64,000 nt of DNA from Oculatellaceae cyanobacterium bins.114. GTDB taxonomy: Bacteria; Cyanobacteriota; Cyanobacteriia; Elainellales; Elainellaceae. A model generated the notes under the pieces. That model saw nothing but the letters and a program-made list of their open reading frames with translations. It had not been told where the DNA came from and made no database searches. Position numbers and translations under genes: made by a program. How positions within the stretch are numbered: the stretch's first letter is position 1; each line of letters starts with the position of its first letter. Location: the NCBI GenBank assembly GCA_033764315.1, contig JANRJA010000170.1, forward strand, positions 25,885 to 89,884. Direction: 5' to 3'. Shown in pieces: positions 3,802-52,040 of this stretch.

Positions 3802-4438
3802 CAAGTCAGGTCGATTAACTTGTATATTACCGAGTCAAATTCATCATGAAGCGACTCCAAGATTCGGATTGATGGTGAATATCAAATAGTGAATATCACA
3901 TATTACATGAGGTAGTTCACTTGTATGGGGTCATTAACTCATACCAATTATTGTGATGAACATGATGTGACGTGCATCAATGGCATGGAGGTCAGAATAT
4001 GTAATTGTTTTAATGTTGAGTTTTGAAAACTGATAGTCAGTGTATGTGCTTAGATGCACTATCACCCACTGAAACATCTCAATGACTTAATAAGTTTTTG
4101 CAATACCCTATCGCTAAGTATGTTGATTTGATGAAGCAAAATCGATGTGAGTTAGAGAGATGTCCAGTTTTCGATATAGTTTCAGTAAAAATGCCGTTGT
4201 TACTAACCTCTCTGACCGAATAAGTTGAACTTGCGAATTTATAAAGTTGGTTTAGTAGCATTTTCCCTGCTTAAACCTTCCTCGTCCAAGACTACTTGTG
4301 TTAGTTCAAATTTCATTTTTAATGAACACTAGATTCGTACTATCAACTGATTAATCCGGTTATTTATGCCGGGGATTTGATTAAGAGCCAATTCATTGTT
4401 CCGTTCAAGTCACGTACTTTTTTTACCTGAATCTCGTC

Positions 4439-5212: not shown

Positions 5213-5260
5213 CCCTCAATACTCTTGAGTGAAGACTTGAGTGAAGAGCATCCCGCTTTG

Positions 5261-5310
5261 ATCAATCATTGACAGTTCTATCAATCATTGACCCTCTTAT
5301 CAATCATTGA
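5261..5310. repeat. Three copies of ATCAATCATTGA at 19-bp period
   Basis: Copies at 5261, 5280 and 5299 with 7-nt spacers CAGTTCT and CCCTCTT. Confidence 0.85.
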
Positions 5311-5326
5311 AGGGAATGGCAAGCGT

Positions 5327-5360
5327 AAGGTCCCCGAATTCTTTAAGAAATCGGGGACTT
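5327..5360. repeat. Palindromic dispersed repeat (TCCCCG...CGGGGA type), possible terminator
   Basis: AAGGTCCCCGAATTCTTTAAGAAATCGGGGACTT; related hairpin at 49636-49668. Confidence 0.6.
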
Positions 5361-5479
5361 TGGTCGTCAAGCTCTAGCCACTAATTAATCTGCCACACCA
5401 GAGGTCAAACATCATTTATCCAGGTAAGCACTGAACAGATGGTAATTTTCTAAGATAGAGGTAGTTTTTATTCGCCACA

Positions 5480-30229: not shown

Positions 30230-31855
30230 ATGAAGCGATTTACACTTCTTTTTCAACAAATTGATGAAACCACCTCTACTAATGAGAAAGTCAGTGCATT
30301 ACAGCACTATTTTCAGGAGGAAGAACCTGCTAATGCTGTATGGGCACTTTATCTATTGTTGGGCAAGACACGTAAACGATTAATTACCTCTAACACTCTA
30401 CGAAAGATTTTTTTGCAGATTTCAGACATTCCAGAGTGGTTATTTGAAGATTGTTATGCCCATGTTGGAGATACAGCTGAAGTTATTTCGTTGTTACTCA
30501 CAGACACAGCTTTGACTGTCAAAACTGGTTCTGACATTCCACTAAGGGAGTGGATGGAAAAAATTATTCCAGTTGTCAAACAGATTGAGTCAGAGGATGA
30601 ATTGACACAATTAGTTGTCTCCTGGTGGTCTTCTCTAACCGCATTTGAGGTGTTTATTCTCAATAAACTTCTCACTGGGGCATTTCGTGTCGGTGTCTCA
30701 GGAAAGTTGGTGATTAAAGGACTTTCAGCCGCATTCAATATTTCCGAACCCGACTTAACCCACCGTTTAATGGGTGACTTTGAACCCACAGTTGAGTTCT
30801 ATCAGCAACTGATTCAAGATGAGCATATTACTCACTCACCCAGTAGACCCTATCCCTTTTTTCTAGCTTCTCAATTAGAAGAAGATCGATTTCAAACGGA
30901 AGATTTTGTGGCTTGGCGAGCCGAGTGGAAATGGGATGGCATTCGGGCGCAAATGATTCGTCGCGCCAATCAATTGTTTATCTGGTCACGCGGTGAGGAT
31001 CTCATTACTCATCAATTTCCAGAGTTTGAACACGCTTTTGCTGACATTCCCAATGGCTATGTGCTAGATGGTGAGATTTTGGGGTGGGAGGATAATCACC
31101 CCATGAACTTTAATGCGTTGCAAAAACGATTGGGACGTAAGCGTGTGACCCCTAAGATGATTGAGCAAAACCCCACTCGGTTTATTGCCTATGATTTACT
31201 GGAGCATGACGGGCAAGACATTCGAGACAAACCCCTGAGCGATCGCCGCGCACTACTCTTAGAGTTGCTTCAAGTTTATACCTCTCCCTTAATCGGCACA
31301 TCAGATTGGCTCAATTTTGCCTCGTGGGAGGAGTTGACTCAGTTAAGGGAAGCCTCCCGTGAACAGGGTGCTGAGGGATTGGTGATCAAAGCGGTGGATA
31401 GTCCCTATTTAGTCGGTCGTAAACGGGGCTATTGGTGGAAATACAAAGTTGATCCGATGTCGTTGGATGCAGTGCTGATTTACGCCCAAGCCGGAACTGG
31501 TAAACGAGCTAATCTTTTTACAGATTATACGTTTGCTCTGTGGAATGGTGAGGCATTAGTTACTTTTGCCAAAGCTTATTCAGGATTGGACAACACAGAA
31601 ATTGAAGAACTGGATAAGTGGATTCGTAAACACACGGTTGAGAAATTTGGCCCGGTGCGATCGGTGGAGCCTATCCAGGTGTTTGAAATTGCGTTTGAGG
31701 GCATTGCCGAATCCAAGCGTCATAAATCAGGCATTTCGGTGCGGTTTCCTCGGATCTTGCGGTGGCGTAAAGACAAACCTGCCGCAGAAGCAGACACCCT
31801 TGAAACCGCACAAACTTTATTGCGCGGTCATTCCTCCATCAGCAGAGATGATTGA
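30230..31855 (+). CDS. ATP-dependent DNA ligase (ligase-associated damage response cluster)
   Basis: EWKWDGIRAQ (KxDG), LDGEI, YDLLE, EGLVIK, WKYK, VRFPR. Confidence 0.95.
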   Translation: MKRFTLLFQQIDETTSTNEKVSALQHYFQEEEPANAVWALYLLLGKTRKRLITSNTLRKIFLQISDIPEWLFEDCYAHVGDTAEVISLLLTDTALTVKTGSDIPLREWMEKIIPVVKQIESEDELTQLVVSWWSSLTAFEVFILNKLLTGAFRVGVSGKLVIKGLSAAFNISEPDLTHRLMGDFEPTVEFYQQLIQDEHITHSPSRPYPFFLASQLEEDRFQTEDFVAWRAEWKWDGIRAQMIRRANQLFIWSRGEDLITHQFPEFEHAFADIPNGYVLDGEILGWEDNHPMNFNALQKRLGRKRVTPKMIEQNPTRFIAYDLLEHDGQDIRDKPLSDRRALLLELLQVYTSPLIGTSDWLNFASWEELTQLREASREQGAEGLVIKAVDSPYLVGRKRGYWWKYKVDPMSLDAVLIYAQAGTGKRANLFTDYTFALWNGEALVTFAKAYSGLDNTEIEELDKWIRKHTVEKFGPVRSVEPIQVFEIAFEGIAESKRHKSGISVRFPRILRWRKDKPAAEADTLETAQTLLRGHSSISRDD

Positions 31856-32581
31856 ACCTGTGATAAAGGAGGCTTCATCAGAAGCTAGAAACAAGGCAAG
31901 ATGAGCAATTTCTCGCGGCTCACCGGGACGACCAATGGGTTGAAACGAATCGATCGAGGCATAGATTTTGTCTAACCCACCCATCATGTCGGCATGGGCA
32001 TAGTTAATAGGAGTATCGACCCAGCCCGGACAAATTGCGTTACAGCGGATCCCCTGTTTGGCATAGTCGAGAGCAATGCCGCGAGTGAGCATAACGACAC
32101 CTCCTTTAGATGCTGAATACACGGCTAAAAACGGCTCAGATACCAATCCATTAACGCTAGAGATATTGACGATCGCCCCTTTTCCAATTCGCAACATATA
32201 GGGAATTGCTGCACGGCACCCATACATCGTGCCTTTGAGGTTGACATTCAGGGTTTTATCAATCACCGCATCAGAGACTTCATGAAACACTCCTGGAATG
32301 TTGACTCCAGCATTGTTGACCAATACATCAATTTGTCCATAATGCTCGACGCAAAATGCCACAAATGCATTGACCTGCAAAGGGTCACTGACATCGGCGG
32401 CAAATGCCTCAGCCACACCTCCGCTCTTTTGAATGGTTTCCGCTGTGGCGATCGCCGTGTCCTGGTTTAGATCAACACAGATGACTTTGCCCCCTTCTTC
32501 TGCCAATCGTTCAGCGATCGCCCGCCCAATGCCTGACCCTGCCCCTGTCACTACACAAGCTTTCCCCTCGACTCGTCCCAT
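31817..32581 (-). CDS. SDR family oxidoreductase
   Basis: VTGAGSGIG, NNAG, YSASK, CPGWVDT. Confidence 0.93.
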   Translation of the reverse strand: MGRVEGKACVVTGAGSGIGRAIAERLAEEGGKVICVDLNQDTAIATAETIQKSGGVAEAFAADVSDPLQVNAFVAFCVEHYGQIDVLVNNAGVNIPGVFHEVSDAVIDKTLNVNLKGTMYGCRAAIPYMLRIGKGAIVNISSVNGLVSEPFLAVYSASKGGVVMLTRGIALDYAKQGIRCNAICPGWVDTPINYAHADMMGGLDKIYASIDSFQPIGRPGEPREIAHLALFLASDEASFITGSIISADGGMTAQ

Positions 32582-32968
32582 CGCTGTCGCTATCCTTGAT
32601 TTAATCGCACTGCTCAATGTCTACTGTAGTCGTTGGGCTATGCTTAAGCTAGATCAACTGGAGTAGAATCGGGATGACTGAAGCCCGACTCAAAATGCAT
32701 TAGCTCAAACTAAACTGGCTCCAGCAGGATTGCCCCCTCCATTTCTTGACCACACACAGCTACGCATACAGCTACACACACAGTTACCAGAGTCAGGGGG
32801 ATGAAGACATTCGGCGATCGCCCCAAAGCAATGCGCTGAAACCGCAGAAGAAAAAGTAAGCAGATTAGCAGCGGTTGGAAGAATTGGGGGTTGACCCGAT
32901 TTGGTGTAAGTTTTTTGTGGCCTGTAGAATCAGTATTAGGGGGTTGTGCCGCTCTTTGAGGTTTCTGT

Positions 32969-35428
32969 GTGCCACGTCATCGCAAAAAAGAGCCTGTTCT
33001 AAACGCTGATCTGAGCTGTTTGCAGCCGATTCTGGCTTGGTTTGAGACTCAGGGGTGGCAACCGTTGCCATTCCAACTGGAGGCGTGGCAAGCCGTTCTA
33101 GCGGGTGAGAGCGGCATGATTCAGGTGCCTACAGGGTCGGGCAAAACCTATGCTGCTGTGATGGGGGCGATCGCCGCTATGCTCGATACCCCTAAGACTG
33201 GATTGCAACTCCTCTACATCACACCGTTGCGGGCACTATCTCGTGATATTGAGCAAGCCATTCTGCGTCCCATTCAAGAGATGGGTTGGAAGCTACGAGT
33301 TGAGTCTCGTACCGGAGATACCACCTCTTCGCGCAAAACTCGACAACTCAAAAACATGCCCGATATTCTGATCACGACCCCTGAGTCGCTTTCAGTGATG
33401 TTGTCTTACGAAGGCAGTCGGGAGCGGTTCCAATCACTGCGAGTGGTGATTTTGGATGAATGGCATGAGTTGCTTAGCTCTAAACGGGGAACTCAAACCG
33501 AATTGTGTCTGTCCCAGTTGCGATCGCTTCAACCTAACCTGCAAACCTGGGCAATTTCGGCAACGTTGGGCAATCCCGTTGAGGCAGCACAGGTTGCCGT
33601 GGGGTTGGGAGTAACACCCACCATTATTCAGGCTAATTTGCAGCGTCAGACTGTTATTAAGAGCGTCTTACCAGAGTCGGTAGATAGCTTTCCGTGGGCA
33701 GGGCACTTGGGTCTAAGGATGCTTGATGAACTGGTGGAAGCGTTGGATATTGAAGTCTCTACGTTGATTTTTACCAACACGCGATCGCAATCTGAACGGT
33801 GGTATCAAGCACTTCTGTTTGCAGTTCCAGAGTATGGCGATCGCATTGCCTTACATCATGGATCAATTGATGTCAAAGAACGTGAGGCGATCGAGGCTGG
33901 GGTCAAAGCGGGAGTCATCAAGTGGGTCGTTTGCACCTCATCTCTAGATTTGGGAGTGGACTTTCAGCCTGTTGAGCGGGTAGTACAAATTGGCAGTGCC
34001 AAAAATTTAGCACGTTTATTGCAGCGGGCAGGGCGATCGGCACATGTTCCCCAAGGAACCTCTGAGATTTTGTTTTTGCCGACCAATGCCCTAGAGTTGC
34101 TAGAAATTTCAGCCATACGACATGGGTTAGAAGCCGGAGAGATTGAAGTTCGACGTGCCCTTAATAAACCTTACGATGTACTAATTCAGCATTTAGTCAC
34201 GTTATCGTGTGGCGATGGATTCAAAGCAGAAGATATTTTACAAACTATTCAAAAAACAGTCTCTTACCGTGAGATTACAGAGCAAGAATTAAAGTGGATT
34301 TTAGAATTTATCACGACTGGGGGAAAGTGTTTAAATGCTTATCCTCGCTACAAAAAAGTGATTTTAGAGAATGATATCTATAAAGCTGCCGATGCCCAAA
34401 TCATCAAAATGCATCGAATGGGAGTGGGTACGATCGCCTCCAATCAAGCGGTTCGGATTGTCTACACCAATCGCAAAGAGATCGGTACTGTCGAAGAAAA
34501 CTTTGTCTCAAAGCTCAAAAAAGGAGATGTCTTCTTCTTTGCTGGAAAACAACTAGAATTCTTCATGATGAAGGACATGGTAGTTTACGTCAAAGGAAGC
34601 ACTAAGAAATCTACTGTCACACCCATTTGGTATGGGGGCAACTTAACTATCTCTGACACGCTTAGTCATCAACTAAGACAAGAGATTACCGCCGTTAAAC
34701 AGCACACTAAATTGAACACAGAACTGGAGTGCATTCAACCTATTCTTTCGGCTCAAGCGCGGATCTCCCAGCTTCCGGCTCAAGATGAATTGTTGATTGA
34801 GTGCTGCAAGACCCGCGAAGGGCAACATCTCTATATCTTTCCATTTGAAGGACGCTTTGTACATGAAGGGTTGGGGCTATTGTGGGGCTATCGCTTTGCC
34901 CACCAAAAACATGCCACGTTTACAATTTCAGTCAATGATTATGGGTTTGAAATTTTGGCACCCAAAGACTACCCCTTCAAAGATCTGTTCTCTCGCGAGT
35001 TTTTTGACCTGGAACAACTCCAAGAAGATATGAAGGCTAGCTTGAATTTATCTGAACTGACAAGCCGCAAATTTCGGGGCATCGCTCAAGTTGCAGGACT
35101 GGTGTTTAAGGGTTATCCATCGGCTCAAAAAACATCGAGTCAGCTTCAGGTGAGTTCCTCATTGATTTATGATGTTTTTTCAAAATACGAGCCTGATAAT
35201 CTGTTATTGAAACAAGCTGAGAAAGAGGTGCTTGAGGATCAATTAGAAGTTCACCGTTTAACCAAAACCCTCAACCGCATGAGGCAATTGGCGATCGCCT
35301 GGAAAGATACCAAACGTCCATCCCCCTTTGCTTTTCCGTTGTTGGTCGAGCGGCTCAGCTCTCGCATGTCAAATGAAAGCTTGTTAGAAAGAATTGGGCG
35401 TCTCAAAGATCTCTGGGTTAACAAATAA
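32969..35428 (+). CDS. Ligase-associated DEXH-box helicase (Lhr-core)
   Basis: PTGSGKT, YITPLRAL, TTPES, DEWH, SAT, LHHGS, QRAGRS. Confidence 0.93.
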   Translation: MPRHRKKEPVLNADLSCLQPILAWFETQGWQPLPFQLEAWQAVLAGESGMIQVPTGSGKTYAAVMGAIAAMLDTPKTGLQLLYITPLRALSRDIEQAILRPIQEMGWKLRVESRTGDTTSSRKTRQLKNMPDILITTPESLSVMLSYEGSRERFQSLRVVILDEWHELLSSKRGTQTELCLSQLRSLQPNLQTWAISATLGNPVEAAQVAVGLGVTPTIIQANLQRQTVIKSVLPESVDSFPWAGHLGLRMLDELVEALDIEVSTLIFTNTRSQSERWYQALLFAVPEYGDRIALHHGSIDVKEREAIEAGVKAGVIKWVVCTSSLDLGVDFQPVERVVQIGSAKNLARLLQRAGRSAHVPQGTSEILFLPTNALELLEISAIRHGLEAGEIEVRRALNKPYDVLIQHLVTLSCGDGFKAEDILQTIQKTVSYREITEQELKWILEFITTGGKCLNAYPRYKKVILENDIYKAADAQIIKMHRMGVGTIASNQAVRIVYTNRKEIGTVEENFVSKLKKGDVFFFAGKQLEFFMMKDMVVYVKGSTKKSTVTPIWYGGNLTISDTLSHQLRQEITAVKQHTKLNTELECIQPILSAQARISQLPAQDELLIECCKTREGQHLYIFPFEGRFVHEGLGLLWGYRFAHQKHATFTISVNDYGFEILAPKDYPFKDLFSREFFDLEQLQEDMKASLNLSELTSRKFRGIAQVAGLVFKGYPSAQKTSSQLQVSSSLIYDVFSKYEPDNLLLKQAEKEVLEDQLEVHRLTKTLNRMRQLAIAWKDTKRPSPFAFPLLVERLSSRMSNESLLERIGRLKDLWVNK

Positions 35429-35439
35429 TCTTTTAAAGC

Positions 35440-36087
35440 ATGGAATTGAGTATCTGTAATTTTGATCTAAAGCTGTTACCTGAAAAGGCCATTTATATCA
35501 AACAGTTCAATAGTTTATTAGTCTCTGATATCCATCTCGGCAAATCAGAAACCTTTCAACAGGCAGGTATTCCCATCCCAAATAGCATCAACGCTCAAAC
35601 ACTCGATCGCCTACAAAAATTATGCTCTCAACTCCAGCCCGATCATCTGTTTATCCTGGGTGATCTATTTCACTCTCGTTTTGCGTTGGTTGATGAGGTA
35701 TTAGACAGTTGGCTTAACTTTCTTAATGGTGTGAAGATAGGCGTGACACTCATTATTGGAAATCACGATCGCTATTTGACTCAACAATTAGACACCTTAT
35801 CAATTCACTATTCAATTCATAAAATTCAAATCGACGATCTGATTTTGAGCCATGAACCCTCTCCACAAACCGATTGTTTGAATATTTGTGGACATATTCA
35901 TCCCTGTCTTAAGATTAAGACGAAATTGGATAGCTTGCGATTACCCTGTTTCTATTTCAACAAAACTCAAAACCTTTTGATACTGCCTTCTTTTGGAGAA
36001 TTCACAGGAGGATATGAAATGGAACTAACCTCTAACTCGACTGCTTATGTCATCGCAGAAGATGCGATCGTTCCATTTCAGGGGTAA
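35440..36087 (+). CDS. pdeM: Ligase-associated metallophosphoesterase/endonuclease
   Basis: SDIHLGK, GDLFH, GNHD, HEP, GHIHP, LPSFG.FTGG; directly follows the helicase. Confidence 0.9.
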   Translation: MELSICNFDLKLLPEKAIYIKQFNSLLVSDIHLGKSETFQQAGIPIPNSINAQTLDRLQKLCSQLQPDHLFILGDLFHSRFALVDEVLDSWLNFLNGVKIGVTLIIGNHDRYLTQQLDTLSIHYSIHKIQIDDLILSHEPSPQTDCLNICGHIHPCLKIKTKLDSLRLPCFYFNKTQNLLILPSFGEFTGGYEMELTSNSTAYVIAEDAIVPFQG

Positions 36088-42637: not shown

Positions 42638-44290
42638 TCATCCCTGTTCTAAGTTCTCTAATGCAAATTGAATCAGTTGAATCTGATAGTGCTGTTGAGA
42701 GTCTTGAGCTGGCGGATCAGGAATCGGGCAACTGATGATAGGGGTGGCGATCGCCTCATAGCGTTGCAAAGCAGACACAGCAGTGGTACTAAACCGTTTG
42801 AGGTAATCTTGAGCAGCGTTACGATAGAGTTGCTCAACCTGGTAGCTCAAAGCATCTGCCGAGATAGGATTGCCCACCTCCGTGCCGCCCGACTTGTTAA
42901 TTAAGTAACTGGCTCCACCCAACACGGCTGCTCCGATAGGGCCGCCAAACACCCAACCCAACCCAGTGGCGATCGCAACGGGAGCAACATCTCCAGAAGA
43001 GGCTTTGGGAGTTTGGGGTGAGACATCGGGCAGCACCACGGTTGGTTCTTCGGGAAACATCACCCAGAGATCGGCAGGTCGTGCTTGCCCAAAAAAATCA
43101 CAGGCTTTATAAACCCAATCCACAACGGCTTGTTGGTGTAAAACCCAGTCAGGCTTGAGGGACAGAGTCACCCAGTTGGCAAACTCAAATTGTTGGAGAG
43201 CGACAGTGGCAGCAGCGTGATAGCGATCGAGCAAATTAGGCAGGGCAAGCCAGGTTTGCAACTCAGCAATGCTTTTAGAAAAGCCCTGTTGAATCAATCC
43301 TTGCGCTTTGCGTTTAATGTGAACTCGCTGTAATTCTTTTTCGTCGAATGTGGGTGCGGTTGCTGCGATCGCCGTCATCTTGTCTCGCAACGCTTGCTGC
43401 ACTTGAGTAGCGATCGCTTGGAGTCGTGGCAGACGGGTTTCACTGGGTTGTCCTTGTAAGCTGTGCACCACGTGCTGTAGTGCTGTTTCAAACATGGGCA
43501 ATCCAGTTGCCTGTGCCTGTGCCAGATCTCCTTGAAGACGCGATCGCAGAGCAGGTAAGGCATCCACTCGATAGAGATTGCTAACTCCAGCAGGCAGCTT
43601 TGCCCGAAAGCTTTCGGCGACAAATCGCAGGCGATTATAGACCTGTTTTTGGTCTTCCGGCTCCAGTAAGTTCAAAAAATTGACGACAAAAATAACGGTG
43701 GTAATACCGCGATCGAGCAACCAGTCGCGCAGATGTTCCCGTTCGCCCAGAGTCATCAACTTGCGACCATCTAGCACTTGTACCACTAAGTCAGCCGTCA
43801 ACAATTGCTCTCGCACCAGGGCATCCTGAGCGTCTTGATCGTCGGTTCCAGGGAGGTCGATCAATTCAACTCCCATCTGCAAAAACGGATGGGGACAGGT
43901 GACTTCGACAGATACCACATCTTCGCGCATACGGCGATCGCCATCTAACACCGCAAATTGTTTCAAGATGTCTGTACCCGCCTCATCGATGGTCGTTCCA
44001 TCTTGAAAGACGATGCGACTGCGTAACTCGCTGCCATAACGAACGGCGATCGCGGCTCCGGTCGTGGGAATCAGGTCAATGGGTAGAGTACGCTCTCCTA
44101 ACAAGGCGTTTAGCAGCGTGGATTTGCCGTAGTTAAACGGAGCAAAAACAGCAATCCGAAAGCTCGATCGGTTGACTACGTTAGCCAGCAGGTTCACCTC
44201 CCGTCGCAAGGGAGTGTCGGCAGACAGTTCTAACAAACTGACTGCCGTCTGGAGATGATTAAGTAGAGTCTGGCAGGTATCTTGCTCCAT
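42638..44290 (-). CDS. Dynamin-like protein (divergent GTPase motifs)
   Basis: APFNYGKSTLLNAL, PTTG, DLPG, VNFLN. Confidence 0.85.
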   Translation of the reverse strand: MEQDTCQTLLNHLQTAVSLLELSADTPLRREVNLLANVVNRSSFRIAVFAPFNYGKSTLLNALLGERTLPIDLIPTTGAAIAVRYGSELRSRIVFQDGTTIDEAGTDILKQFAVLDGDRRMREDVVSVEVTCPHPFLQMGVELIDLPGTDDQDAQDALVREQLLTADLVVQVLDGRKLMTLGEREHLRDWLLDRGITTVIFVVNFLNLLEPEDQKQVYNRLRFVAESFRAKLPAGVSNLYRVDALPALRSRLQGDLAQAQATGLPMFETALQHVVHSLQGQPSETRLPRLQAIATQVQQALRDKMTAIAATAPTFDEKELQRVHIKRKAQGLIQQGFSKSIAELQTWLALPNLLDRYHAAATVALQQFEFANWVTLSLKPDWVLHQQAVVDWVYKACDFFGQARPADLWVMFPEEPTVVLPDVSPQTPKASSGDVAPVAIATGLGWVFGGPIGAAVLGGASYLINKSGGTEVGNPISADALSYQVEQLYRNAAQDYLKRFSTTAVSALQRYEAIATPIISCPIPDPPAQDSQQHYQIQLIQFALENLEQG

Positions 44291-44379
44291 CCTGATAGCC
44301 CTGAATTCTGAATCTTTGCAGCAATGCTCGACGTACGGAAGTCAGAGTTTTTGAAAAGCTCCAACTTTTCAGCGATCGA

Positions 44380-46434
44380 CTACACCAACAACGTTTGATA
44401 GGTTGCCTCTAGCTTACGACATTCATCCGAGACGATCGCCTCTACCCCTTGCAACCGCTTCAGTTCCATCTCCCGATTAATTTCGTGGGATTCTTTCTGC
44501 TTCAACAGGTTGTTTAACTCAGCTTGGCGGGAGTGAATATCATCGTTGATCCGCTTAATCACCTCTCGTTCATAAGTATCAAAGCACTCCTGAACAGCAC
44601 TATAGATCGGTTGCCATTGGTCTTGGGCAATTTTGGGCAAGTATTTCACCAGTTCTTTTTTGATGGCTTTCGCAAATTGCTTGCGGGCGTGATCGGCTTG
44701 CAATGCCCCAACTCCCAAACTGGCGACGATGATCCCAAAGGGACCAAGAATGGAGCCAAACAGAATGGCAATGCCAGTGGTGGCAAACAGATTCAACAAA
44801 ATGCTTTTGAAATCAAACCCAGAGACAGCCAGGGCAGCCCCGGCAAAATTGCCTGATGCCAGGGAAAACAACCCCATTGCCCACTTTGCCCAACCTGGAG
44901 TGCTATCATCTCCCGTTGCCGTATCGGGTCGGGGATGCAGGGGTTGCCCCGTGAGTTTAGCACTGATTTGATCGGTGATTTGAGCATAGGATGCCCCATA
45001 CTTTTCGGCACTCTTCGATAGCTCCCCAAAGGCAGCCGTTAAATCTTTTTCAGCCGTCAGTGTCCAGGCAAAAAATTTATCGTTGACGTATTGCTCAAAC
45101 CCTTGCTGAGCCGCTGCATTGAATTGCTGCCGTTTGCTCTCGCTAAAGAAGTCAAAGAATTGCATATCTCCAGGCTGATAGCGCAAAAAGTCTTGCTCAA
45201 ACGTTGCCTCTAGCCCAAACACATAGCTACGAAAGGAATCGGCGATCGCCCGTGCTTTGCGATCGCGCAGGGAACGAATCTCGTCCCGAAACTGATCGCG
45301 AATCTCGGACAGTTGAGCGAATTGGGGTTCAACTGATTGAATGCGTTGCTTTAGTTCTTGCACCGTCTGATTGAGCAAGGGAATGCGCCGTTCGATCGCC
45401 TCTCGCACCCGCACATGCGCCTGTCGTGCTAAGGTTCGTCCTTGTCGTAACTCAGCGATCGCCCGTTCTTGGGTCAAGAAGGTGTTGAGAGCTTGAATGA
45501 ATCCAGGAAACCCAGTTCCCTCAAGGTCGGCATTAGCGTCTTTGATGCGTCGTCGCAAAGCACTGATGGCAGAAATCTCAAACACTCGCTCGTCATAAAG
45601 ATCAACGCCATCCACAACGCAATACTCTGCTAGATTAGCGTGAAACACTTTACGGAGTTTGGTTTCTGCCTCTGCTAACTCCGCTGCATCATCCGGGTCA
45701 ATCAATCCTTCTTTTACCTGATCCCAGGCGTTGATCAAGAAGAAAATCGAGAGTCCTCGATCTTTGATGTAGTTCTCCAGATATCGCCGCTCTGCCATTG
45801 TGCAAGGTTGAGAAGCCCGCAACACAAACAGGATGGCGTGACAATTGGTGATGTAGCCCAGAGAAAGTTCATTACGGGCTTCGGTATCATTCAATCCTGG
45901 ACTATCGACAATCTCAACGCCCTTCTCTAGCAACGGCAGGGGATATTCCACTACCGCATGGCTGACATCGGGAAATGCCTGTTGCTTCTTCTGCTCTAGC
46001 TCTTTGGCTTCTTCTGGTGGAATCGTGTAGCGTTGCTTAAAGTGTTGAAAGTCAATGCGTTCAGGGGATTTGCCATCGTTGAAGTGAATCGTCACCGTCT
46101 TCTCAGAACCATACTTCAAGATGGTGAGCAGAGCAGTACAGGGATTGACATCGCTGGGCAACAGGTTCTCGCCAATTAACGCATTCAAAAAGGTGCTCTT
46201 GCCACGCTTCATATCACCTAACACCAGCAACCGAAACACACCCTTTTGCAGGTTTTTGCTAGCGGTGCTGATGTCTTCAATTTCCCGCTCTAGCCCCAGT
46301 TTGCCAGAGGTGGCTTCGCCTTCTGCCTCGGCTGTAAACAAGGTATCCGCAATGGTTCCAAGATGGTGGGCGATCGCCTGACGGGTGCGGCTAATGCGAT
46401 CGAGGTCGTTGAGAAAGTGAGTAGAGGAGGTCAT
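44380..46434 (-). CDS. Bacterial dynamin-like protein (BDLP)
   Basis: GDMKRGKSTFLNAL, PCTA, DSPG, INAWD, and a hydrophobic paddle near the C-terminus. Confidence 0.92.
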   Translation of the reverse strand: MTSSTHFLNDLDRISRTRQAIAHHLGTIADTLFTAEAEGEATSGKLGLEREIEDISTASKNLQKGVFRLLVLGDMKRGKSTFLNALIGENLLPSDVNPCTALLTILKYGSEKTVTIHFNDGKSPERIDFQHFKQRYTIPPEEAKELEQKKQQAFPDVSHAVVEYPLPLLEKGVEIVDSPGLNDTEARNELSLGYITNCHAILFVLRASQPCTMAERRYLENYIKDRGLSIFFLINAWDQVKEGLIDPDDAAELAEAETKLRKVFHANLAEYCVVDGVDLYDERVFEISAISALRRRIKDANADLEGTGFPGFIQALNTFLTQERAIAELRQGRTLARQAHVRVREAIERRIPLLNQTVQELKQRIQSVEPQFAQLSEIRDQFRDEIRSLRDRKARAIADSFRSYVFGLEATFEQDFLRYQPGDMQFFDFFSESKRQQFNAAAQQGFEQYVNDKFFAWTLTAEKDLTAAFGELSKSAEKYGASYAQITDQISAKLTGQPLHPRPDTATGDDSTPGWAKWAMGLFSLASGNFAGAALAVSGFDFKSILLNLFATTGIAILFGSILGPFGIIVASLGVGALQADHARKQFAKAIKKELVKYLPKIAQDQWQPIYSAVQECFDTYEREVIKRINDDIHSRQAELNNLLKQKESHEINREMELKRLQGVEAIVSDECRKLEATYQTLLV

Positions 46435-47734: not shown

Positions 47735-47767
47735 GATTTTAGATTTTAGATTTTAGATTTTGGATTG
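47735..47767. repeat. 7-bp short tandem repeat (GATTTTA, STRR type)
   Basis: GATTTTA x3, GATTTTG, GATTG. Confidence 0.75.
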
Positions 47768-47770
47768 AGC

Positions 47771-48000
47771 AGCGATTTTCTGTAGGGTGGGCATCGCCCA
47801 CCATGTCTCATGTTCATTAGCGATTTTCTGTAGTGGGCATCGCCCACCATGTCTCATGTTCATTAGCGATTTTCTGTAGGGTGGGCATCGCCCACCATGT
47901 CTCATGTTCATTAGCGATTTTCTGTAGGGTGGGCATCGCCCACCATGTCTCATGTTCATTAGCGATTTTCTGTAGGGTGGGCATCGCCCACCATGTCTCA
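47771..48000 (+). repeat. Tandem array of 48-bp units each carrying a GTAG REP hairpin
   Basis: Units start at 47771, 47819 (46 bp, GG deleted), 47865, 47913 and 47961 (40 bp, partial); core GTAG-GGTGGGC-ATC-GCCCACC. Confidence 0.92.
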
Positions 48001-48230: not shown

Positions 48231-48354
48231 ATACCAACTTGATTTGAAAACAGTGCAAACGGTGAAAATGCGACCCCTCCCAACCTCCCCTTGCCAAGGG
48301 GAGGTGCCGTAGGCGGTGGGGTCAAGTGCAAGGGTCACTGTTTCAATTGGTATA
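48231..48354. mobile_element. MITE-like element with internal hairpin
   Basis: Imperfect IRs ATACCAA..TTGAAAACAGTG / CACTGTTTCAATTGGTAT. The core 48272-48343 recurs at 53951-54022. Confidence 0.65.
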
Positions 48355-48471
48355 ACAAACGAGGCCTCAGAAGTAACAAACGAGGCCTCAGAAGTAACAA
48401 ACGAGTCCCCAAAAGCAACAAACGAGTCCTCAGAAGTAACACATGAGGTCGCAGAAGTAACAAACGAGGTC
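48354..48471. repeat. 21-bp tandem repeat, about 5.6 copies
   Basis: Consensus AACAAACGAGGCCTCAGAAGT at 48354, 48375, 48396, 48417, 48438 and 48459. Confidence 0.9.
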
Positions 48472-48508: not shown

Positions 48509-48795
48509 CTACTTTCCCAAAACCGCCTCTTGAATCTTCCGGCAAATCTCCGCTAACACCTTATTCTGCTCTGAGGGACTAAGGCTATCGAGCGGATGAG
48601 CCACATCATGAGCCGCTTGATACTCCACAATCTTGCTGGTTTCATAGAGGCAATGGCTCAATAACACCCACGCGATCGCCAACCCCTCTTGCTCCGCTGC
48701 CTTTAACAATGGGGGCAACTCATTTTCATGGATAAAGTCGGAGTTGAGGAAGTCAGGGCTGACCAAAAACACGGCTACCTTTGCCGATGCCAGAC
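48509..48795 (-). pseudogene. 5'-truncated TIR (TIR_2-like) domain gene
   Basis: AKVAVFLVSPDFLNSDFIHENELPPLL...YQAAHD..PL is the C-terminal part of a TIR domain. The N-terminal FISY strand is absent and the frame runs into a REP. Confidence 0.75.
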
Positions 48796-48804
48796 ATGAT
48801 GGAT

Positions 48805-48825
48805 GGTGGGCAATGCCCACCCTAC
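48805..48825 (-). repeat. REP copy directly upstream of the Y1 nuclease gene
   Basis: GGTGGGCAATGCCCACCCTAC. Confidence 0.85.
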
Positions 48826-48862
48826 GGTTTTCAACTTTATTTCATTACCATTCCTAGCATCA

Positions 48863-49630
48863 GTGTCTCGTCAACCCCGTGAACTTAAGCCCGAATATGG
48901 CTATCACATCACGACTCGATGCAATAATCGCGAGTTTCGTTTAATTCGCGATGAGTGCCGTGAACTATTGCTGTATGCAATCAATAGATGTCAGGAGAAG
49001 TATGGCTTTAAGCTCTATGCTCTATGCATCATGAGCAACCATGTGCATTATCTGCTAGAGCCACAAAAACCCGATGACTTGCCTAAAATCATGCACTGGT
49101 TAAACTGGTTCACAGCCATGTGCTTTAACCGAACGCTCAATCGCACCGGGCACTTTTGGGAGAAACGGTATCACAGTACTGGGTTCCCAATGAGTGACAA
49201 ACGCCGAGCCTTGAATACACTGCGCTATATTCATGCCAACCCCAAAGCGGCGAATATGCAGCAAGGATTCTTCTATGATTACAGCAATTACGGTAGCTAT
49301 GACCGCTTGACAAATGATGGCATTACGCAATGGCATCCAGCGTTTTTGGCACTCGGCGCAACGCTAGAAATTTGTGCCGCCGCCTATCGCAAGTTTTGCA
49401 AGAAATATAAGCCGCAACCCAAACCTGAGAAAAAAAGTCACTGGGGCAGCAAGCTCTTAGCACAAATCAAGGCAAGAAGTCGGTTGAAGAAAAAGCCAAG
49501 CCCAGGGCAACAGTCGCTTTGGGAGGAGTGGAATGCTCCTGATGAGGAAATTCGCCAGGTGGCTAAGAAATTTGTGTTGGCAAACTGTTTTGATCCCAAG
49601 ATTGCTGGTTTGAAGTTTACGATTCCTTGA
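48863..49630 (+). CDS. HUH/Y1 tyrosine transposase-like nuclease (RAYT/TnpA-REP-like, IS200/IS605 superfamily)
   Basis: YHITTRCNN, MSNHVHYLL (HUH), GHFWEKRY, RYIHANP (catalytic Tyr), YSNY; GTG start at 48863; no tnpB. Confidence 0.9.
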   Translation: MSRQPRELKPEYGYHITTRCNNREFRLIRDECRELLLYAINRCQEKYGFKLYALCIMSNHVHYLLEPQKPDDLPKIMHWLNWFTAMCFNRTLNRTGHFWEKRYHSTGFPMSDKRRALNTLRYIHANPKAANMQQGFFYDYSNYGSYDRLTNDGITQWHPAFLALGATLEICAAAYRKFCKKYKPQPKPEKKSHWGSKLLAQIKARSRLKKKPSPGQQSLWEEWNAPDEEIRQVAKKFVLANCFDPKIAGLKFTIP

Positions 49631-49635
49631 TTGCC

Positions 49636-49668
49636 AGATCCCCGGTTGCTTGAAGCAACCGGGGAACT
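49636..49668. terminator. Hairpin between the convergent Y1 nuclease and NACHT-GUN4 genes
   Basis: AGATCCCCGGTTGCTT-G-AAGCAACCGGGGAACT. Confidence 0.6.
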
Positions 49669-49775
49669 AAAAAGCTGGGGTGCCAGGTAACAGATCTCTA
49701 AAAGGACGCAAAATCGTGTAGAAAGACTCTATTTACAAACTTTAAAAAAAGCTCAGGACTGTCTCGTGCTACAGT

Positions 49776-52040
49776 TTACAAGTCTGTGCGCGAGAAAAGA
49801 GAACCTGCCCACACCGTATCCCACCTGTAACCCATCGGTAATTCTCCAGTAGGAGATTTTTGAAGATGAAATTGCAGTTGGTCGGAGTCCACGTAGGCGG
49901 TTGCGGAGGTTTTCCATCCTACTTTAACGCAAAAGCGATCCCACTCCGCTCCTGTTGAGGTGGGGCTCCCACAATCCTGCCAAATCTTCTTTTGCACACT
50001 AAAGCCAAATTTGCCCTTGCTGTATCTGACCCAAAGTTGGTCGAGCGTTTTTAGATCGTCACAGGGAAAGTTTTCGAGATCAGAACGGCTAAACCCTTGC
50101 CCTTCATCTTTGCCAACCGTGGTGATCATCAACCGATAGGTTTCCTGGTCTGCCTCACGCCATCGCTGCACTTTCAATAGTTCTTCTAGGTTTTGATACT
50201 TTGAGTCTTGAGCAACCGTTTTGAGCGTTTGGAACAATGCCATCAGTTCAGGATTGACTTTCTCAGGGCGAGGATATTCTTTGAGACAGACCGCTGCCAG
50301 TTCTGCGGCTTCGCTACCCAATTCACACGCTTTGCGAATGACCTGATCGAGCAATTTGGGGCTGAGTTGTGCAGTGTAGAGCAAAACGGTTTCTCGCCAT
50401 ATGGCTCCATTCCAGTTTTGCAAGACGAGTTGAGCATTGGTTCTGATACCCTCTGCATCCTGGGGTTGTGCCAGTCGCATGGCGGCAAAAAAGCCCTGAA
50501 AACTAAGATGCGGAAACTCATATTCTCCAGGCTCACGCTCGACTAACAACTCACTGACTTCTACCATCTGCTTTAGCCAGCTTGCGGGTTCGACTTCCTC
50601 TCGTTGAAACACAGTCTGCTGGGTCAAAAATTTCACCAGTCCTTGATGTTGCACCTTGGCTCGATTGACTTTCGTCATTTCTAACGCCAAAGTTTGCAAA
50701 ATTCCCAGGCTTTGCTCATAGGGCAACACCATGCGAATCAAACGAGCACGAGGACGATCATCGAGCTGAAGTTTACAAATGCCGCGATAGAGATCAATCC
50801 GTTGTCGAGGCAGTTCGCGGGAGGGGTCAAACCGATGAAACGTCACCAGCATGTTAAGCAACAATGGGTTTTCAGCCATGTAACCCAATTCGTCTTGACG
50901 CTGCTTTAATTGGGTAATGAGTTGGTTTGAGCGGTCTTGAGCGACTCGTTTAGCATGGCGCAATTGCTTTTCGCTGCGACAACACTTTTCCTGACAGAGA
51001 TACCAGCGGCGAATAAATTGCTCTTGCTGAGTTGGGGTAAACTTGTTGACAAAAATCGGCACTGCCGGACGCTGAGCCGTGTAGTCCTTAAACCCTGCCG
51101 GACGGGATGTGACAATAAATATAGTTTCACTATATTCACGCATTTGGGCACTTAACCAGTGGCTTACCTGATGCCGCTTGTCTTCGGGCACTTCGTCAAA
51201 CCCATCAAACATGATCAGTGCTCTTCCACTGGCTAACAGCTTTTCTGCCCACTTCAGCGGTGGAGTCAGAGGTTGATTTCTAGACAGACTGGGGACATGA
51301 AACTCACTCATCAACTTGGGCAAGCTGGGGGGCTGAGGCTGGGTCAGTGAGTCAGACCAATCACGCAATCGCAGCAACACAGGAACCAGTTTGGGGGCAC
51401 GATATCGCCGTTGTTTGCGTTGACCATAAATCAGAGCAATGTGTCGCAACAAGGTGGTTTTGCCCATGCCGCCTTTTGCCTGAATACTCATTTGACGAAA
51501 CTTGCGATCGCGCTTTGAGCGGGCTAATACATTCCAAATGCTGAGGTTTTCAGAGTATAAGACCGCATCACGCTGTGACCAAACTTTTTGAGGTTTATTG
51601 CTCTGAGTGAATGCATCACTTGCCAAGATGCCTTGCAACTCTAGCGGCACAAACACGTCTTCTAATAAGGGAATTGCCGTGCGATCGGGATTGAAGCCCT
51701 CCGAGGTAAACTCTTCACACAGCCTCGCCTGTTGTTTGAGATAGTGCCCCTCAAAGTCGGAGCGCAGTGTAGACCAACTCTCTAATAGGGATTGCTCTAC
51801 AGTGGCGATCGCCCAATCTATTACCTGATCAATCTTGGGTGCAATCCTTTTGCCAACTTTGATGGCAATCCACATGCCAGCGGCTCCTGCAAAATACCAG
51901 GCAGCTTCCGTCCACTGGTTATCCCTAGCTTTGGTGATGCCGACAAAGCTTAGTGCCCCTGGAATGCCAAAGGTGATCAGTTTGTTATCAAGTAACTCAA
52001 AAACCTTTTCGATCGAGGTGGGCGAGTAGGGATCTGACAT
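49776..52040 (-). CDS. NACHT NTPase with C-terminal GUN4-like domain
   Basis: AKGGMGKTT (Walker A), FDGFDE (Walker B), VTSRP, NPLLL, EFPHLSFQ; then WREADQET, FPCDDL.TLDQLW..YS.GKFGFSVQK.IW, GELP (GUN4-like). Confidence 0.9.
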   Translation of the reverse strand: MSDPYSPTSIEKVFELLDNKLITFGIPGALSFVGITKARDNQWTEAAWYFAGAAGMWIAIKVGKRIAPKIDQVIDWAIATVEQSLLESWSTLRSDFEGHYLKQQARLCEEFTSEGFNPDRTAIPLLEDVFVPLELQGILASDAFTQSNKPQKVWSQRDAVLYSENLSIWNVLARSKRDRKFRQMSIQAKGGMGKTTLLRHIALIYGQRKQRRYRAPKLVPVLLRLRDWSDSLTQPQPPSLPKLMSEFHVPSLSRNQPLTPPLKWAEKLLASGRALIMFDGFDEVPEDKRHQVSHWLSAQMREYSETIFIVTSRPAGFKDYTAQRPAVPIFVNKFTPTQQEQFIRRWYLCQEKCCRSEKQLRHAKRVAQDRSNQLITQLKQRQDELGYMAENPLLLNMLVTFHRFDPSRELPRQRIDLYRGICKLQLDDRPRARLIRMVLPYEQSLGILQTLALEMTKVNRAKVQHQGLVKFLTQQTVFQREEVEPASWLKQMVEVSELLVEREPGEYEFPHLSFQGFFAAMRLAQPQDAEGIRTNAQLVLQNWNGAIWRETVLLYTAQLSPKLLDQVIRKACELGSEAAELAAVCLKEYPRPEKVNPELMALFQTLKTVAQDSKYQNLEELLKVQRWREADQETYRLMITTVGKDEGQGFSRSDLENFPCDDLKTLDQLWVRYSKGKFGFSVQKKIWQDCGSPTSTGAEWDRFCVKVGWKTSATAYVDSDQLQFHLQKSPTGELPMGYRWDTVWAGSLFSRTDL

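What the first reader, a model, noticed from the sequence alone, without database searches (positions are those of the whole stretch)
49753..49845. GUN4-like domain ends in a tail readable in all three frames after a G-rich segment: candidate indel-based diversification target
Seen: after GELP the gene has a 33-nt segment (49803-49835; 16 of 33 nt are G on the coding strand) followed by TCTCTTTTCTCGCGCACAGACTTGTAAACTGTAGCACGAGACAGTCCTGA. Frame 0 gives SLFSRTDL* (stop 49776), frame +1 gives LFSRAQTCKL* (stop 49769) and frame +2 gives SFLAHRLVNCSTRQS* (stop 49753). The same LFSR tetrapeptide is encoded in two frames. Recalled, unverified: cyanobacterial GUN4-fusion proteins end in these three kinds of tail (..FSRxDL, ..FSRxxTCKL, ..LAxRLVxC) after a variable W/G-rich stretch. 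Inference: the tail is a frameshift-proof constant region, so the upstream loop can change by any number of nucleotides and still give a folded protein. That would be a hypervariable binding loop, analogous to DGR-diversified C-terminal domains but varying by indels. No reverse transcriptase is visible in the window.
Basis: partly seen in the sequence, partly recalled or inferred. Interest (0 to 1): 0.9.

Follow-up and report, generated by a model that had tools for sequence, protein, structure and literature searches.

The report
Frame-proof tail behind hypervariable GUN4 loop
A cyanobacterial immune-type sensor gene ends in a fast-changing G/T-rich loop followed by a conserved DNA piece that gives a usable protein end in all three reading frames, which looks like a previously undescribed way of varying a sensor by insertions and deletions.

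Summary
The NACHT-GUN4 gene (49776..52040, minus) has GELP, a 33-nt loop with 16 G, then 50 nt that read SLFSRTDL*, LFSRAQTCKL* and SFLAHRLVNCSTRQS*.

Among 263 relatives the three tail types are used about equally (62, 77 and 59; 65 unclassified). Tail type has no phylogenetic signal in 86 orthologues (41 changes against 39.6 when shuffled).

- **Tail DNA:** it is conserved whichever frame is used, including at synonymous sites.
- **Loops:** they run 20-123 nt, cannot be aligned between sister proteins, are G/T-rich even at synonymous sites, and are enriched in short tandem duplications.

- **Conserved element:** the tail is the 5' end of a fixed-length 123-nt conserved element (49680..49802) that runs 75 nt past the last stop.
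- **Y1 gene:** a RAYT-like Y1 (HUH) transposase gene (48803..49630) lies convergent downstream. It occurs in 13 of 23 element-bearing loci, behind at least five different N-terminal domains, and next to the element in 4 of 5 plasmid records found by searching with Y1.

There is no reverse transcriptase, template repeat or Rfam family. Seven literature searches found no description of this. The mechanism and any within-population variation remain untested.

The parts
49776..52040 (-). NACHT-GUN4 gene, 754 aa (stop codon at 49776-49778)
   Evidence: ORF listed. Pfam finds NACHT at residues 183-346 and GUN4 at 611-746. The AlphaFold2 model of residues 601-754 has pLDDT 90 and matches solved GUN4 structures with TM 0.73-0.79.
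49836..49847 (-). GELP codons, the last protein-conserved anchor of the GUN4 core and the 5' border of the variable segment
   Evidence: The Pro column is invariant in 53 aligned domains. The Pro codon's third base varies freely (four codons, 1.96 bits), so this border is conserved as protein, not as DNA.
49803..49835 (-). Variable loop (33 nt, MGYRWDTVWAG), G 0.48 and T 0.24, with a weak imperfect 11-nt tandem array that starts in the anchor
   Evidence: The matching segment in relatives is 20-123 nt, cannot be aligned, and is G/T-rich.
49753..49802 (-). Three-frame tail: frame A SLFSRTDL*, frame B LFSRAQTCKL*, frame C SFLAHRLVNCSTRQS*
   Evidence: Synonymous-site conservation is far above that of the domain body.
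49680..49802 (-). Fixed-length 123-nt DNA-conserved element. Its first 50 nt are the tail and it ends in TACCTGGCAC.
   Evidence: In 20 of 28 tail-bearing sequences the 3' motif lies 121-124 nt from the tail start. A profile search finds the element in 23 of 71 sources. Similarity to loci lacking the Y1 gene ends at 49679/49680. No Rfam match and no consensus fold on either strand.
49636..49668 (.). 16-bp hairpin between the element and the Y1 gene's stop
   Evidence: It occurs once in the window. Related hairpins follow the element in L001, L007, L011 and L024.
48803..49630 (+). RAYT-like Y1 (HUH) transposase-family gene, 275 aa, convergent with the GUN4 gene
   Evidence: Pfam Y1_Tnp, E 3.3e-18. 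NCBIfam REP-associated tyrosine transposase scores 68 bits, below its cutoff of 80, and the IS200 model scores 23.5 bits. Homologues of 65-85% identity sit in the same position in 13 of 70 loci. The HVH and RYIH(A/G)NP motifs are kept in 8 of 8 aligned copies.

Best explanation
The 3' end of this family of GUN4 sensor domains is a hypervariable cassette.

**Shown by comparison**
- The segment between the G(E/H)(L/F)P anchor and the last helix turns over much faster than the rest of the protein. It changes by insertions, deletions and whole replacement.
- About half of the loops carry footprints of short tandem duplications whose unit length is mostly not a multiple of three.
- The segment is driven towards G and T on the coding strand.
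- The DNA directly 3' of it is held constant. It is built so that each of the three frames gives a short hydrophobic, helix-prone peptide and a stop within 8-16 codons.
- A loop of any length therefore still yields a complete protein, and the three frames are in fact used about equally.

**Inferred**
- The turnover is caused by a local, strand-asymmetric DNA process acting on the segment 5' of a 123-nt cis element.
- The best candidate actor is the RAYT-like Y1 (HUH) single-strand DNA nuclease encoded convergently downstream. It would nick or process the element, and the break would then be resected back towards the anchor and refilled by slippage or duplication-type synthesis.
- The varied loop would tune what the sensor domain recognises in NACHT, caspase, TIR, kinase, trypsin, CHAT and MoxR-linked conflict proteins.
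For: **Equal use of frames and no phylogenetic signal**
- 263 proteins: A 62, B 77, C 59, other 65, with chi-square p = 0.24.
- 86 NACHT-GUN4 orthologues: 41 changes of tail class on the tree, against 39.6 +/- 2.4 for shuffled labels. 771 of 1000 shuffles were at or below the observed value. Only 9 of 29 sister pairs share a class.

**Loop turnover**
- Of 18 sister pairs with domain-body identity 0.62-1.00, 16 have loop-plus-tail identity of 0.14-0.56. The exceptions are P0178/P0185 and the identical pair P0234/P0235.
- Two tandem paralogues in one genome (L029) align at 81% identity over 540 columns overall. By my reading of that alignment the bodies are about 85% identical and the 150 nt downstream about 97%, while the loops cannot be aligned.

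**DNA-level constancy of the tail**
- 16 conserved degenerate columns of the domain body have a mean top-codon share of 0.49 and 1.69 bits of entropy.
- The six matching tail columns have 0.67-1.00 and 0-0.99 bits.
- All three canonical tails are kept off-frame.

**G/T bias as a DNA property**
- G/T-only synonymous codons, loop against body: Gly 77% vs 36%, Leu 50% vs 17%, Cys 92% vs 40%, Val 84% vs 57% (Fisher p from 2e-12 to 2e-4).
- Several loops contain no A and/or no C.

**Tandem duplications**
- 13 of 28 loops have a tandem array, against a mean of 3.4 and a maximum of 6 in shuffles. Examples are a perfect 22-nt x2 array that includes the anchor codons (L046) and a perfect 12-nt x2 array (L028).

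**Cis element**
- It has a fixed length and sharp ends.
- L030 and L041 differ at 2 of 123 positions, although their domain bodies are only 84% identical.

**Y1 linkage**
- 13 of 23 element-bearing sources have the Y1 gene or remnants of it, against 1 of 48 others (Fisher p = 2e-7).
- These lie behind NACHT, caspase, trypsin, TIR and kinase fusions.
- A search starting from Y1 in plasmids found 5 records, 4 of them with the element and a convergent GUN4-ending gene.
- The catalytic motifs are intact.
Against: - **No population data.** The time scale is bounded only by pairs at about 0.1 substitutions per site.
- **Loops are not frame-proof in general.** Off-frame stop triplets are as frequent in loops as in the body (0.0387 vs 0.0386). 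Only 9 of 28 loops have no stop in any frame. 2 of 28 loci, and several proteins, end inside the loop. Only changes near the tail are guaranteed to be harmless.
- **Tail constancy may not reflect triple-frame protein selection.** Conservation runs 75 nt into non-coding DNA, so it may owe more to a cis function.
- **Structural equivalence is unproven.** AlphaFold2 is confident for the class C tail helix (about 90) but not for the window's class A tail (about 68).
- **The Y1 role is weakly supported.** 10 of 23 element-bearing loci have no Y1 gene within about 1.4 kb. No conserved hairpin or other structure was found in the element. Nothing shows that Y1 acts on it.
- **No gradient.** G/T content is flat along the loop, with no rise towards the tail.
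- **Some loops are not G/T-rich.** L002, L032, L047 and the plasmid copy L072 have a conserved tail without a G/T-rich loop.
Confidence: 0.6

Rival explanations
1. Passive instability. The G/T-rich low-complexity tract, possibly prone to G-quadruplex formation, mutates by ordinary replication slippage with no dedicated machinery. Selection on a tail that keeps being read in a new frame preserves all three readings. The Y1 gene is a selfish or hitch-hiking element that happens to prefer this conserved DNA.
For: - Short tandem arrays are enriched in loops (13 of 28, against 3.4 in shuffles).
- Some loops carry long G runs.
- 10 of 23 element-bearing loci lack a nearby Y1 gene.
- G/T-rich loops also occur where the tail DNA has diverged, for example L008, L031, L035 and L036.
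Against: - Slippage alone does not explain the near absence of C, or why synonymous sites are driven to G/T.
- It does not explain whole-loop replacement between close sisters.
- It does not explain the 75 nt of conserved non-coding DNA of fixed length.
- It does not explain the repeated Y1 linkage across at least five gene architectures and in the search that started from Y1.
- The window's own loop has no simple-sequence tract. Its only array is a weak 11-nt one scoring 30-32.
Confidence: 0.22
2. Mobile 3' cassette. The 123-nt element is the end, or a miniature derivative, of a Y1-mobilised single-strand transposon that lands in GUN4 3' ends and brings its own three-frame terminator. The loops are junction or target sequences, and their diversity is a by-product of repeated insertion and excision. 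Y1 spreads cassettes rather than mutating them.
For: - The element has a fixed length and sharp, conserved ends.
- It is 98% identical between two genera whose flanking gene is 84% identical.
- Its downstream part is near-identical in two paralogues of one genome.
- L011 carries an extra partial copy of the element's 3' end.
- Partial tail duplications are seen in L012 and in the two-tail proteins P0191 and P0206.
- Vallota-Eastman 2020 reports IS200/IS605 transposases as the most widely distributed family near variable proteins of cyanobacterial diversity-generating retroelements, and suggests they disperse them (PMC7517822, passages read).
Against: - The class C reading of the tail corresponds to the native last helix of the GUN4 fold. 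AlphaFold2 models it confidently, and the class A model aligns to solved GUN4 structures over 139-149 columns.
- The tail is alignable with the tails of non-variable Nostoc-type GUN4 genes.
- No conserved second end lies upstream of Y1.
- The window holds one copy of the element and one of Y1.
- No terminal hairpins are conserved.
Confidence: 0.1
3. Reverse-transcriptase-based diversification acting in trans. This would be a diversity-generating-retroelement-like system, or one that adds untemplated bases, encoded elsewhere in the genome and using the 123-nt element as its homing site.
For: - The same protein architectures carry retroelement-diversified C-terminal lectin-type domains in multicellular cyanobacteria (PMC7517822, PMC10907252, PMC7159879; passages read).
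- A conserved DNA block directly 3' of the variable region resembles the layout of such targets (the comparison with that layout is recalled, not from a call).
Against: - No reverse transcriptase was found among the 55 window ORFs.
- There is no second, template-like copy of the tail or element in the window or in the loci.
- The variation is in length and G/T content, not adenine-specific substitution at fixed length.
- The only reverse transcriptase seen near any locus is a group II intron type in L038.
Confidence: 0.04
4. Decay. Class C is the only working form. Classes A and B are slightly damaged alleles tolerated because the last helix is dispensable, and the tail DNA looks conserved only because the frameshifts are recent.
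For: - AlphaFold2 is more confident for the class C helix than for the class A tail.
- Some genes end inside the loop.
Against: - Class C is not the commonest class (59 of 198 classified).
- Use of the three classes does not differ from uniform.
- Synonymous sites of frame C are themselves frozen. Selection on frame C alone would not produce this.
- Stops and Leu-type C-termini are kept in the unused frames.
Confidence: 0.04

Closest known systems
C-terminal lectin-type (FGS) sensor domains diversified by diversity-generating retroelements in cyanobacterial conflict proteins
   Same: - The N-terminal partners are the same (NACHT/STAND, caspase, TIR, kinase, trypsin, vWA-MoxR systems).
- The variable region sits at the extreme 3' end of the gene.
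- A conserved DNA block follows directly 3' of it.
- Transposases of the IS200/IS605 family were noted near such targets.

Sources: PMC7159879, PMC7517822, PMC10907252; passages read.
   Different: - There is no reverse transcriptase and no template repeat.
- The variation is in length and G/T composition, not adenine-directed substitution at fixed length.
- The fold is GUN4, not lectin-type.
- The frame changes and is buffered by a three-frame tail.
Contingency loci (simple-sequence-repeat phase variation)
   Same: Indels in a repetitive tract inside an ORF change the reading frame. Some relatives have G runs and short tandem arrays.
   Different: - In classic loci, as I recall them, two of the three frames switch the gene off. 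Here all three frames give a complete protein and are used equally.
- Most loops, including the window's, have no regular repeat tract.
- Loops are replaced wholesale.
V(D)J junctional diversity (resection plus untemplated, G-biased addition at a cut next to a recognition signal)
   Same: This is a works-like analogy only, and the comparison is recalled, not from a call. Both have a length-variable, G-rich junction next to a conserved cis signal, in a receptor of an immune-type protein.
   Different: - No cutting has been shown here, and there is no relationship of the proteins.
- Here the constant part tolerates every frame, whereas out-of-frame V(D)J joins are non-productive.
RAYT/REPIN systems and IS200/IS605 Y1 transposons
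   Same: - The neighbouring protein has the Y1 fold family with NHVH and YIHxNP motifs of class 2 (TnpA-REP-like) enzymes (classes from PMC6006769, passages read).
- It appears to be low in copy number.
- A hairpin lies next to its 3' end.
   Different: - It scores below the curated RAYT cutoff (68 vs 80 bits) and far below the IS200 cutoff.
- It has a conserved C-terminal extension of about 130 aa.
- The hairpin is not repeated in the 64-kb window.
- There is no conserved second end.
- It is tied to one kind of gene end rather than to dispersed repeats.
Bona fide GUN4 (Mg-chelatase cofactor, tetrapyrrole binding)
   Same: Same fold, with TM 0.73-0.79 to 1Z3X, 4XKB, 7E2R and 1Y6I. The GHLP-type motif is followed by a loop and a last helix.
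   Different: - Here the domain is a C-terminal module of a NACHT protein.
- The sequence match to solved GUN4 proteins stops at the anchor.
- The loop behind the anchor is hypervariable.

Membership tests
GUN4 domain (PF05419) | Profile match above the curated cutoff, and the GUN4 fold | tested here: met
   122 bits against a cutoff of 29.2. The AlphaFold2 model matches solved GUN4 structures with TM 0.73-0.79.
GUN4 domain (PF05419) | Tetrapyrrole binding | not testable with these tools
Tetrapyrrole sensing is only predicted for such fusions (PMC7159879 and bioRxiv 10.1101/2022.07.19.500537, passages read).
NACHT / STAND NTPase | NACHT profile match above the cutoff | tested here: met
   52 bits against a cutoff of 26.7, residues 183-346.
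Diversity-generating retroelement target | Reverse transcriptase in the locus | tested here: not met
   None among the 55 ORFs of 90 aa or more in the 64-kb window. A gene elsewhere in the genome cannot be excluded.
Diversity-generating retroelement target | A template repeat matching the variable region, with adenine-specific differences | tested here: not met
   The tail and element occur once in the window. The variation is in length.
Contingency locus (simple-sequence-repeat phase variation) | A regular homopolymer or short-unit repeat tract inside the ORF | tested here: not met
   The window loop has only a weak 11-nt array of 2.2-2.8 copies scoring 30-32. Some relatives have G runs or 4-8-nt arrays.
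Contingency locus (simple-sequence-repeat phase variation) | On/off switching, with most frames non-productive | tested here: not met
   All three frames end in canonical tails and are used at 62, 77 and 59.
IS200/IS605 transposon | Y1 transposase matching the IS200 model | tested here: not met
   The NCBIfam IS200 model scores 23.5 bits against a cutoff of 55. Pfam Y1_Tnp is met at the superfamily level.
IS200/IS605 transposon | Two conserved ends with subterminal hairpins, and several copies | tested here: not met
   There is no conservation upstream of the gene, a single copy in the window, and no consensus fold in the element.
RAYT / REPIN system | Match to the REP-associated tyrosine transposase model at its cutoff | tested here: not met
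   68 bits against a cutoff of 80. The class 2 motifs NHVH and YIHANP are present (PMC6006769, passages read).
RAYT / REPIN system | Flanking palindromes that recur many times in the genome | tested here: inconclusive
   One hairpin lies next to the gene and is not repeated in 64 kb. The whole genome was not available. L011 has the same palindrome on both sides of its Y1 gene.

The most novel reading that the evidence does not exclude
A domesticated Y1 (HUH) single-strand DNA nuclease and a 123-nt cis element make up a reverse-transcriptase-independent diversity generator for bacterial immune-type sensors. The DNA is opened at the border between loop and tail, resected back to the GELP anchor, and refilled with G/T-biased, partly duplicated sequence of arbitrary length. 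The constant region behind it is readable in all three frames, so no event is wasted. This would be a prokaryotic counterpart of junctional diversification in antigen-receptor genes.
Probability: 0.2. Interest if true: 0.97.

Novelty: categorically new. Interest (0 to 1): 0.9.

Why it matters
The only well-understood targeted protein diversifiers in bacteria are retroelement-based substitution systems, DNA inversion or cassette systems, and on/off repeat tracts.

This pattern is different. A large family of sensor domains (5111 relatives at E <= 1e-3) sits on NLR-like, caspase, TIR, kinase and MoxR-linked conflict proteins. It varies by length at one loop and is buffered by a gene end that works in every frame.

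If an enzyme drives this, it is a new mechanism of programmed variation and a new job for HUH nucleases. If not, it is still a clear natural case of selection for frameshift tolerance.

It also changes how GUN4 fusions should be read. The variable loop suggests varied ligands, not only tetrapyrrole sensing.

It is directly testable in cultured strains that carry the module. By record title these include Trichodesmium erythraeum IMS101, Nostoc flagelliforme CCNUN1 and Cylindrospermopsis curvispora GIHE-G1.

Tried and rejected
- **Rfam:** a scan of 49500-50000 found nothing near any gathering score.
- **Consensus fold:** none for the element on either strand, with 0 predicted pairs.
- **Second copy:** no template-like copy of the tail or element in the window.
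- **Second end upstream of Y1:** none found. The alignment was uninformative, and blastn similarity stops inside the coding sequence.
- **Hairpin as a dispersed repeat:** it occurs once in the window and in 2 of 70 loci.
- **Depletion of off-frame stops in loops:** not found.
- **G/T gradient towards the tail:** not found.
- **Partial tail copies inside loops:** 2 weak cases among 28.
- **Pfam profile end as a guide to the ancestral frame:** uninformative, because matches mostly stop at the anchor.
- **First regex classification of tails:** the class C pattern was faulty. It was replaced.
- **DNA search of plasmids with the GUN4 end:** 1 partial hit only.
- **Neighbourhood scan:** no polymerase, deaminase or reverse transcriptase found.
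- **Within-cluster variants:** The listing of cluster members could not be run because the database was off.
- **Supplementary files:** none were consulted. Tables S4 and S5 of PMC7517822, on transposases near variable proteins, may bear on the Y1 link.
Full report
**1. The observation**

The minus-strand ORF 49776..52040 encodes a 754-aa protein. It has a NACHT NTPase domain (residues 183-346) and a C-terminal GUN4 domain (611-746). After the GELP codons (49836-49847) comes a 33-nt segment with 16 G (49803-49835). It is followed by 50 nt (49753-49802) that read SLFSRTDL*, LFSRAQTCKL* and SFLAHRLVNCSTRQS* in the three forward frames.

The LFSR coincidence arises from a TC-rich pyrimidine run. 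The Cys-x-Leu-stop ending recurs in frame B and in the short frame C forms because two TGTA words lie 7 nt apart (read).

**2. The recalled pattern in relatives**

One scan of one-genome-per-species contigs gave 70 cyanobacterial loci. A 35-nt core of the window's tail matches 27 of the 62 other loci that have an anchor and a stop, at 25-33 of 35 positions. Shuffles gave a mean of 16.8 and a maximum of 20.

- Frame use in these 28 sequences, window included: frame A 7 times, B 12 times, C 7 times, and 2 genes stop inside the loop.
- Unused frames still spell the canonical tails. The A stop is at +24 in 26 of 28 and the B stop at +31 in 27 of 28.
- An exhaustive profile-free search found 5111 relatives at E <= 1e-3. 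A second search gave 120 mostly NACHT-GUN4 orthologues.
- Across the 263 proteins retrieved, window's own excluded, permissive patterns class 62 as A, 77 as B and 59 as C. They leave 65 unclassified: truncated proteins, proteins ending in the loop, divergent tails, or GUN4 not terminal.
- The three classes do not differ from equal use (p = 0.24).

**3. Rate of change**

I built a FastTree tree from 86 NACHT-GUN4 orthologues using only sequence up to the anchor.

- Tail class needs 41 changes on this tree. Shuffled labels need 39.6 +/- 2.4, and 771 of 1000 shuffles are at or below the observed value.
- Only 9 of 29 sister pairs share a class. The frame is therefore randomised faster than about 0.1 substitutions per site of protein divergence.
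- In 16 of 18 sister pairs examined, the loops are unrelated in length and sequence, although the last 150 residues of the domain are 62-89% identical.
- Two tandem paralogues in one contig (L029) align at 81% over 540 columns. By my reading of that alignment the bodies are about 85% identical and the 150 nt behind the tail about 97%, while the loops cannot be aligned.

**4. The nature of the loop**

Loops of the 28 sequences are 20-123 nt long, with all remainders mod 3.

- **Composition:** G 0.40, T 0.34, A 0.17, C 0.09, against A 0.30, C 0.21, G 0.27, T 0.23 in the domain body. Several loops have no C and almost no A.
- **A DNA property:** the bias is seen at the DNA level. G/T-only synonymous codons are strongly preferred for Gly, Val, Leu and Cys.
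- **Link to the tail:** G/T content is higher where the tail DNA is conserved (median 0.73 against 0.57, p = 1.3e-4). It is not exclusive to those loci.
- **Distribution along the loop:** it is uniform from anchor to tail.
- **Tandem arrays:** 13 of 28 loops contain short arrays, against 3.4 in shuffles. Units are mostly not multiples of three, and in L046 and the window they begin in the anchor codons.
- **Against full frame-proofing:** off-frame stop triplets are not depleted in loops.

**5. The tail is more than a coding trick**

Conserved degenerate amino-acid columns of the domain body have saturated synonymous sites (mean top-codon share 0.49, 1.69 bits, 16 columns). The frame C columns of the tail are nearly frozen (0.67-1.00).

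- **Extent:** conservation continues beyond all three stops. In 20 of 28 sequences a TACCTGGCAC-type motif lies 121-124 nt from the tail start. This defines a 123-nt element (window 49680..49802).
- **Boundary:** similarity to loci that lack the downstream gene stops exactly at the element's end.
- **Between genera:** L030 and L041 differ at 2 of 123 element positions, while their GUN4 bodies are 84% identical.
- **What it is not:** the element has no Rfam match and no consensus fold on either strand. There is no second copy in the window.
- **Asymmetry:** the 5' border (GELP) is conserved only as protein. The cis information is therefore on the 3' side only.

**6. A linked Y1 gene**

The ORF 48803..49630 (plus strand, convergent) is a Y1_Tnp protein. 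It is closest to REP-associated tyrosine transposases but scores below their cutoff. It scores far below the IS200 cutoff.

- **In the loci:** homologues of 65-85% identity, or fragments of them, lie in the same position in 13 of 70 loci. All of these carry at least part of the element: 13 of 23 element-bearing sources against 1 of 48 others (p = 2e-7).
- **Partner domains:** these GUN4 genes have NACHT, caspase, trypsin, TIR or kinase N-termini. The link is therefore to the GUN4 end itself.
- **Search starting from Y1:** annotated plasmids gave 5 records. Three intact genes, annotated 'transposase', are each convergent to a gene ending in GUN4 plus the element. Those genes are CHAT-, AAA-like- and MoxR-adjacent. 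A fourth record is the same arrangement cut by an ISL3 element, and the fifth is a bare fragment.
- **Enzyme state:** the HVH and Tyr motifs and a C-terminal extension of about 130 aa are conserved in 8 of 8 copies.
- **Transposon features:** no second transposon end is conserved.

**7. Structure**

AlphaFold2 models of the window domain (class A) and of L007 (class C) both reach pLDDT about 90. The class A model matches solved GUN4 structures.

- The class C tail is a confident 17-residue helix, and its loop is poorly defined.
- The class A tail is a 7-residue helix at pLDDT about 68.
- The tail therefore encodes the native last helix of the fold. Whether the three readings are equivalent is open.

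**8. Interpretation**

- **Best reading (0.6):** a hypervariable indel cassette buffered by a three-frame gene end. Y1 is a candidate driver, not a shown one.
- **Rivals:** passive slippage (0.22), a Y1-mobilised 3' cassette (0.10), a trans-acting reverse transcriptase (0.04), and decay (0.04).

Statements about IS608 targets, RAYT recognition, untemplated G-biased addition, and the layout of retroelement targets are my recollection, not tool results.

**9. Literature**

Seven searches found GUN4 named as a predicted tetrapyrrole sensor in cyanobacterial conflict proteins. The sources are PMC7159879 and bioRxiv 10.1101/2022.07.19.500537 (passages). It also appears as a rare N-terminal partner of retroelement targets in PMC7517822 (passages).

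- PMC10907252 has no occurrence of GUN4, indel or frameshift (passages).
- PMC6006769 gave the Y1 class motifs (passages).
- PMC3733652 and PMC5581495 were seen only as search listings.
- None describes the three-frame tail, the G/T loop, the element, or the Y1 link.

Noticed in passing
window 47771-48000: A 48-nt tandem repeat, 4.8 copies at 97% matches, open in several frames on both strands. A 7-nt array lies just before it at 47735-47766.
   Followed up: no
window 48353-48469: A 21-nt tandem repeat, 5.6 copies, lying between the repeat region and a 103-aa ORF (48512-48820, minus) that has no Pfam match.
   Followed up: no
window 30230-36084: A cluster of ATP-dependent DNA ligase, Lhr-type helicase and metallophosphoesterase genes, 14-20 kb from the finding. 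These are DNA-end processing genes, and no link to the loop was shown.
   Followed up: no
window 42641-46434: Two adjacent bacterial dynamin-like genes.
   Followed up: no
L029 300-480 and 1880-2060: Two GUN4 genes 1.5 kb apart in one contig. Their downstream DNA is near-identical, their loops are unrelated, and similarity in the bodies is patchy (100% then about 85% by my reading of the alignment), which suggests gene conversion.
   Followed up: partly
L011 2162-2199: A second, partial copy of the element's 3' end lies about 85 nt behind the first. The same palindrome is found on both sides of the Y1 gene.
   Followed up: partly
L012 loop; proteins P0191 and P0206: A partial tail copy is embedded in a loop, or two tails follow one another with new loop sequence between them, as if an older junction had been kept.
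   Followed up: partly
P0001, P0002, P0003, P0013, P0058, P0066, P0128: These proteins have two to four GUN4 domains. In some (P0001, P0003, P0013) internal domains also have G/W-rich loops behind the anchor. In P0001 the third domain is followed by a class-C-like tail that reads through into the next domain.
   Followed up: no
L074 (Nostoc punctiforme pNPUN02) 3001-6495: The Y1 gene is reduced to a fragment and the CHAT-GUN4 gene is cut inside the GUN4 domain by an ISL3 element, while the 123-nt element survives.
   Followed up: yes
L038 1466-1927: A group II intron-type reverse transcriptase/maturase fragment lies downstream of one GUN4 gene. It is the only reverse transcriptase seen near any locus.
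   Followed up: no
L019 1913-1983: Only the 3' half of the element is present. The GUN4 ORF reads on for 63 residues past the anchor, and an intact Y1 gene follows. This is a locus where the tail itself seems to have been lost.
   Followed up: no
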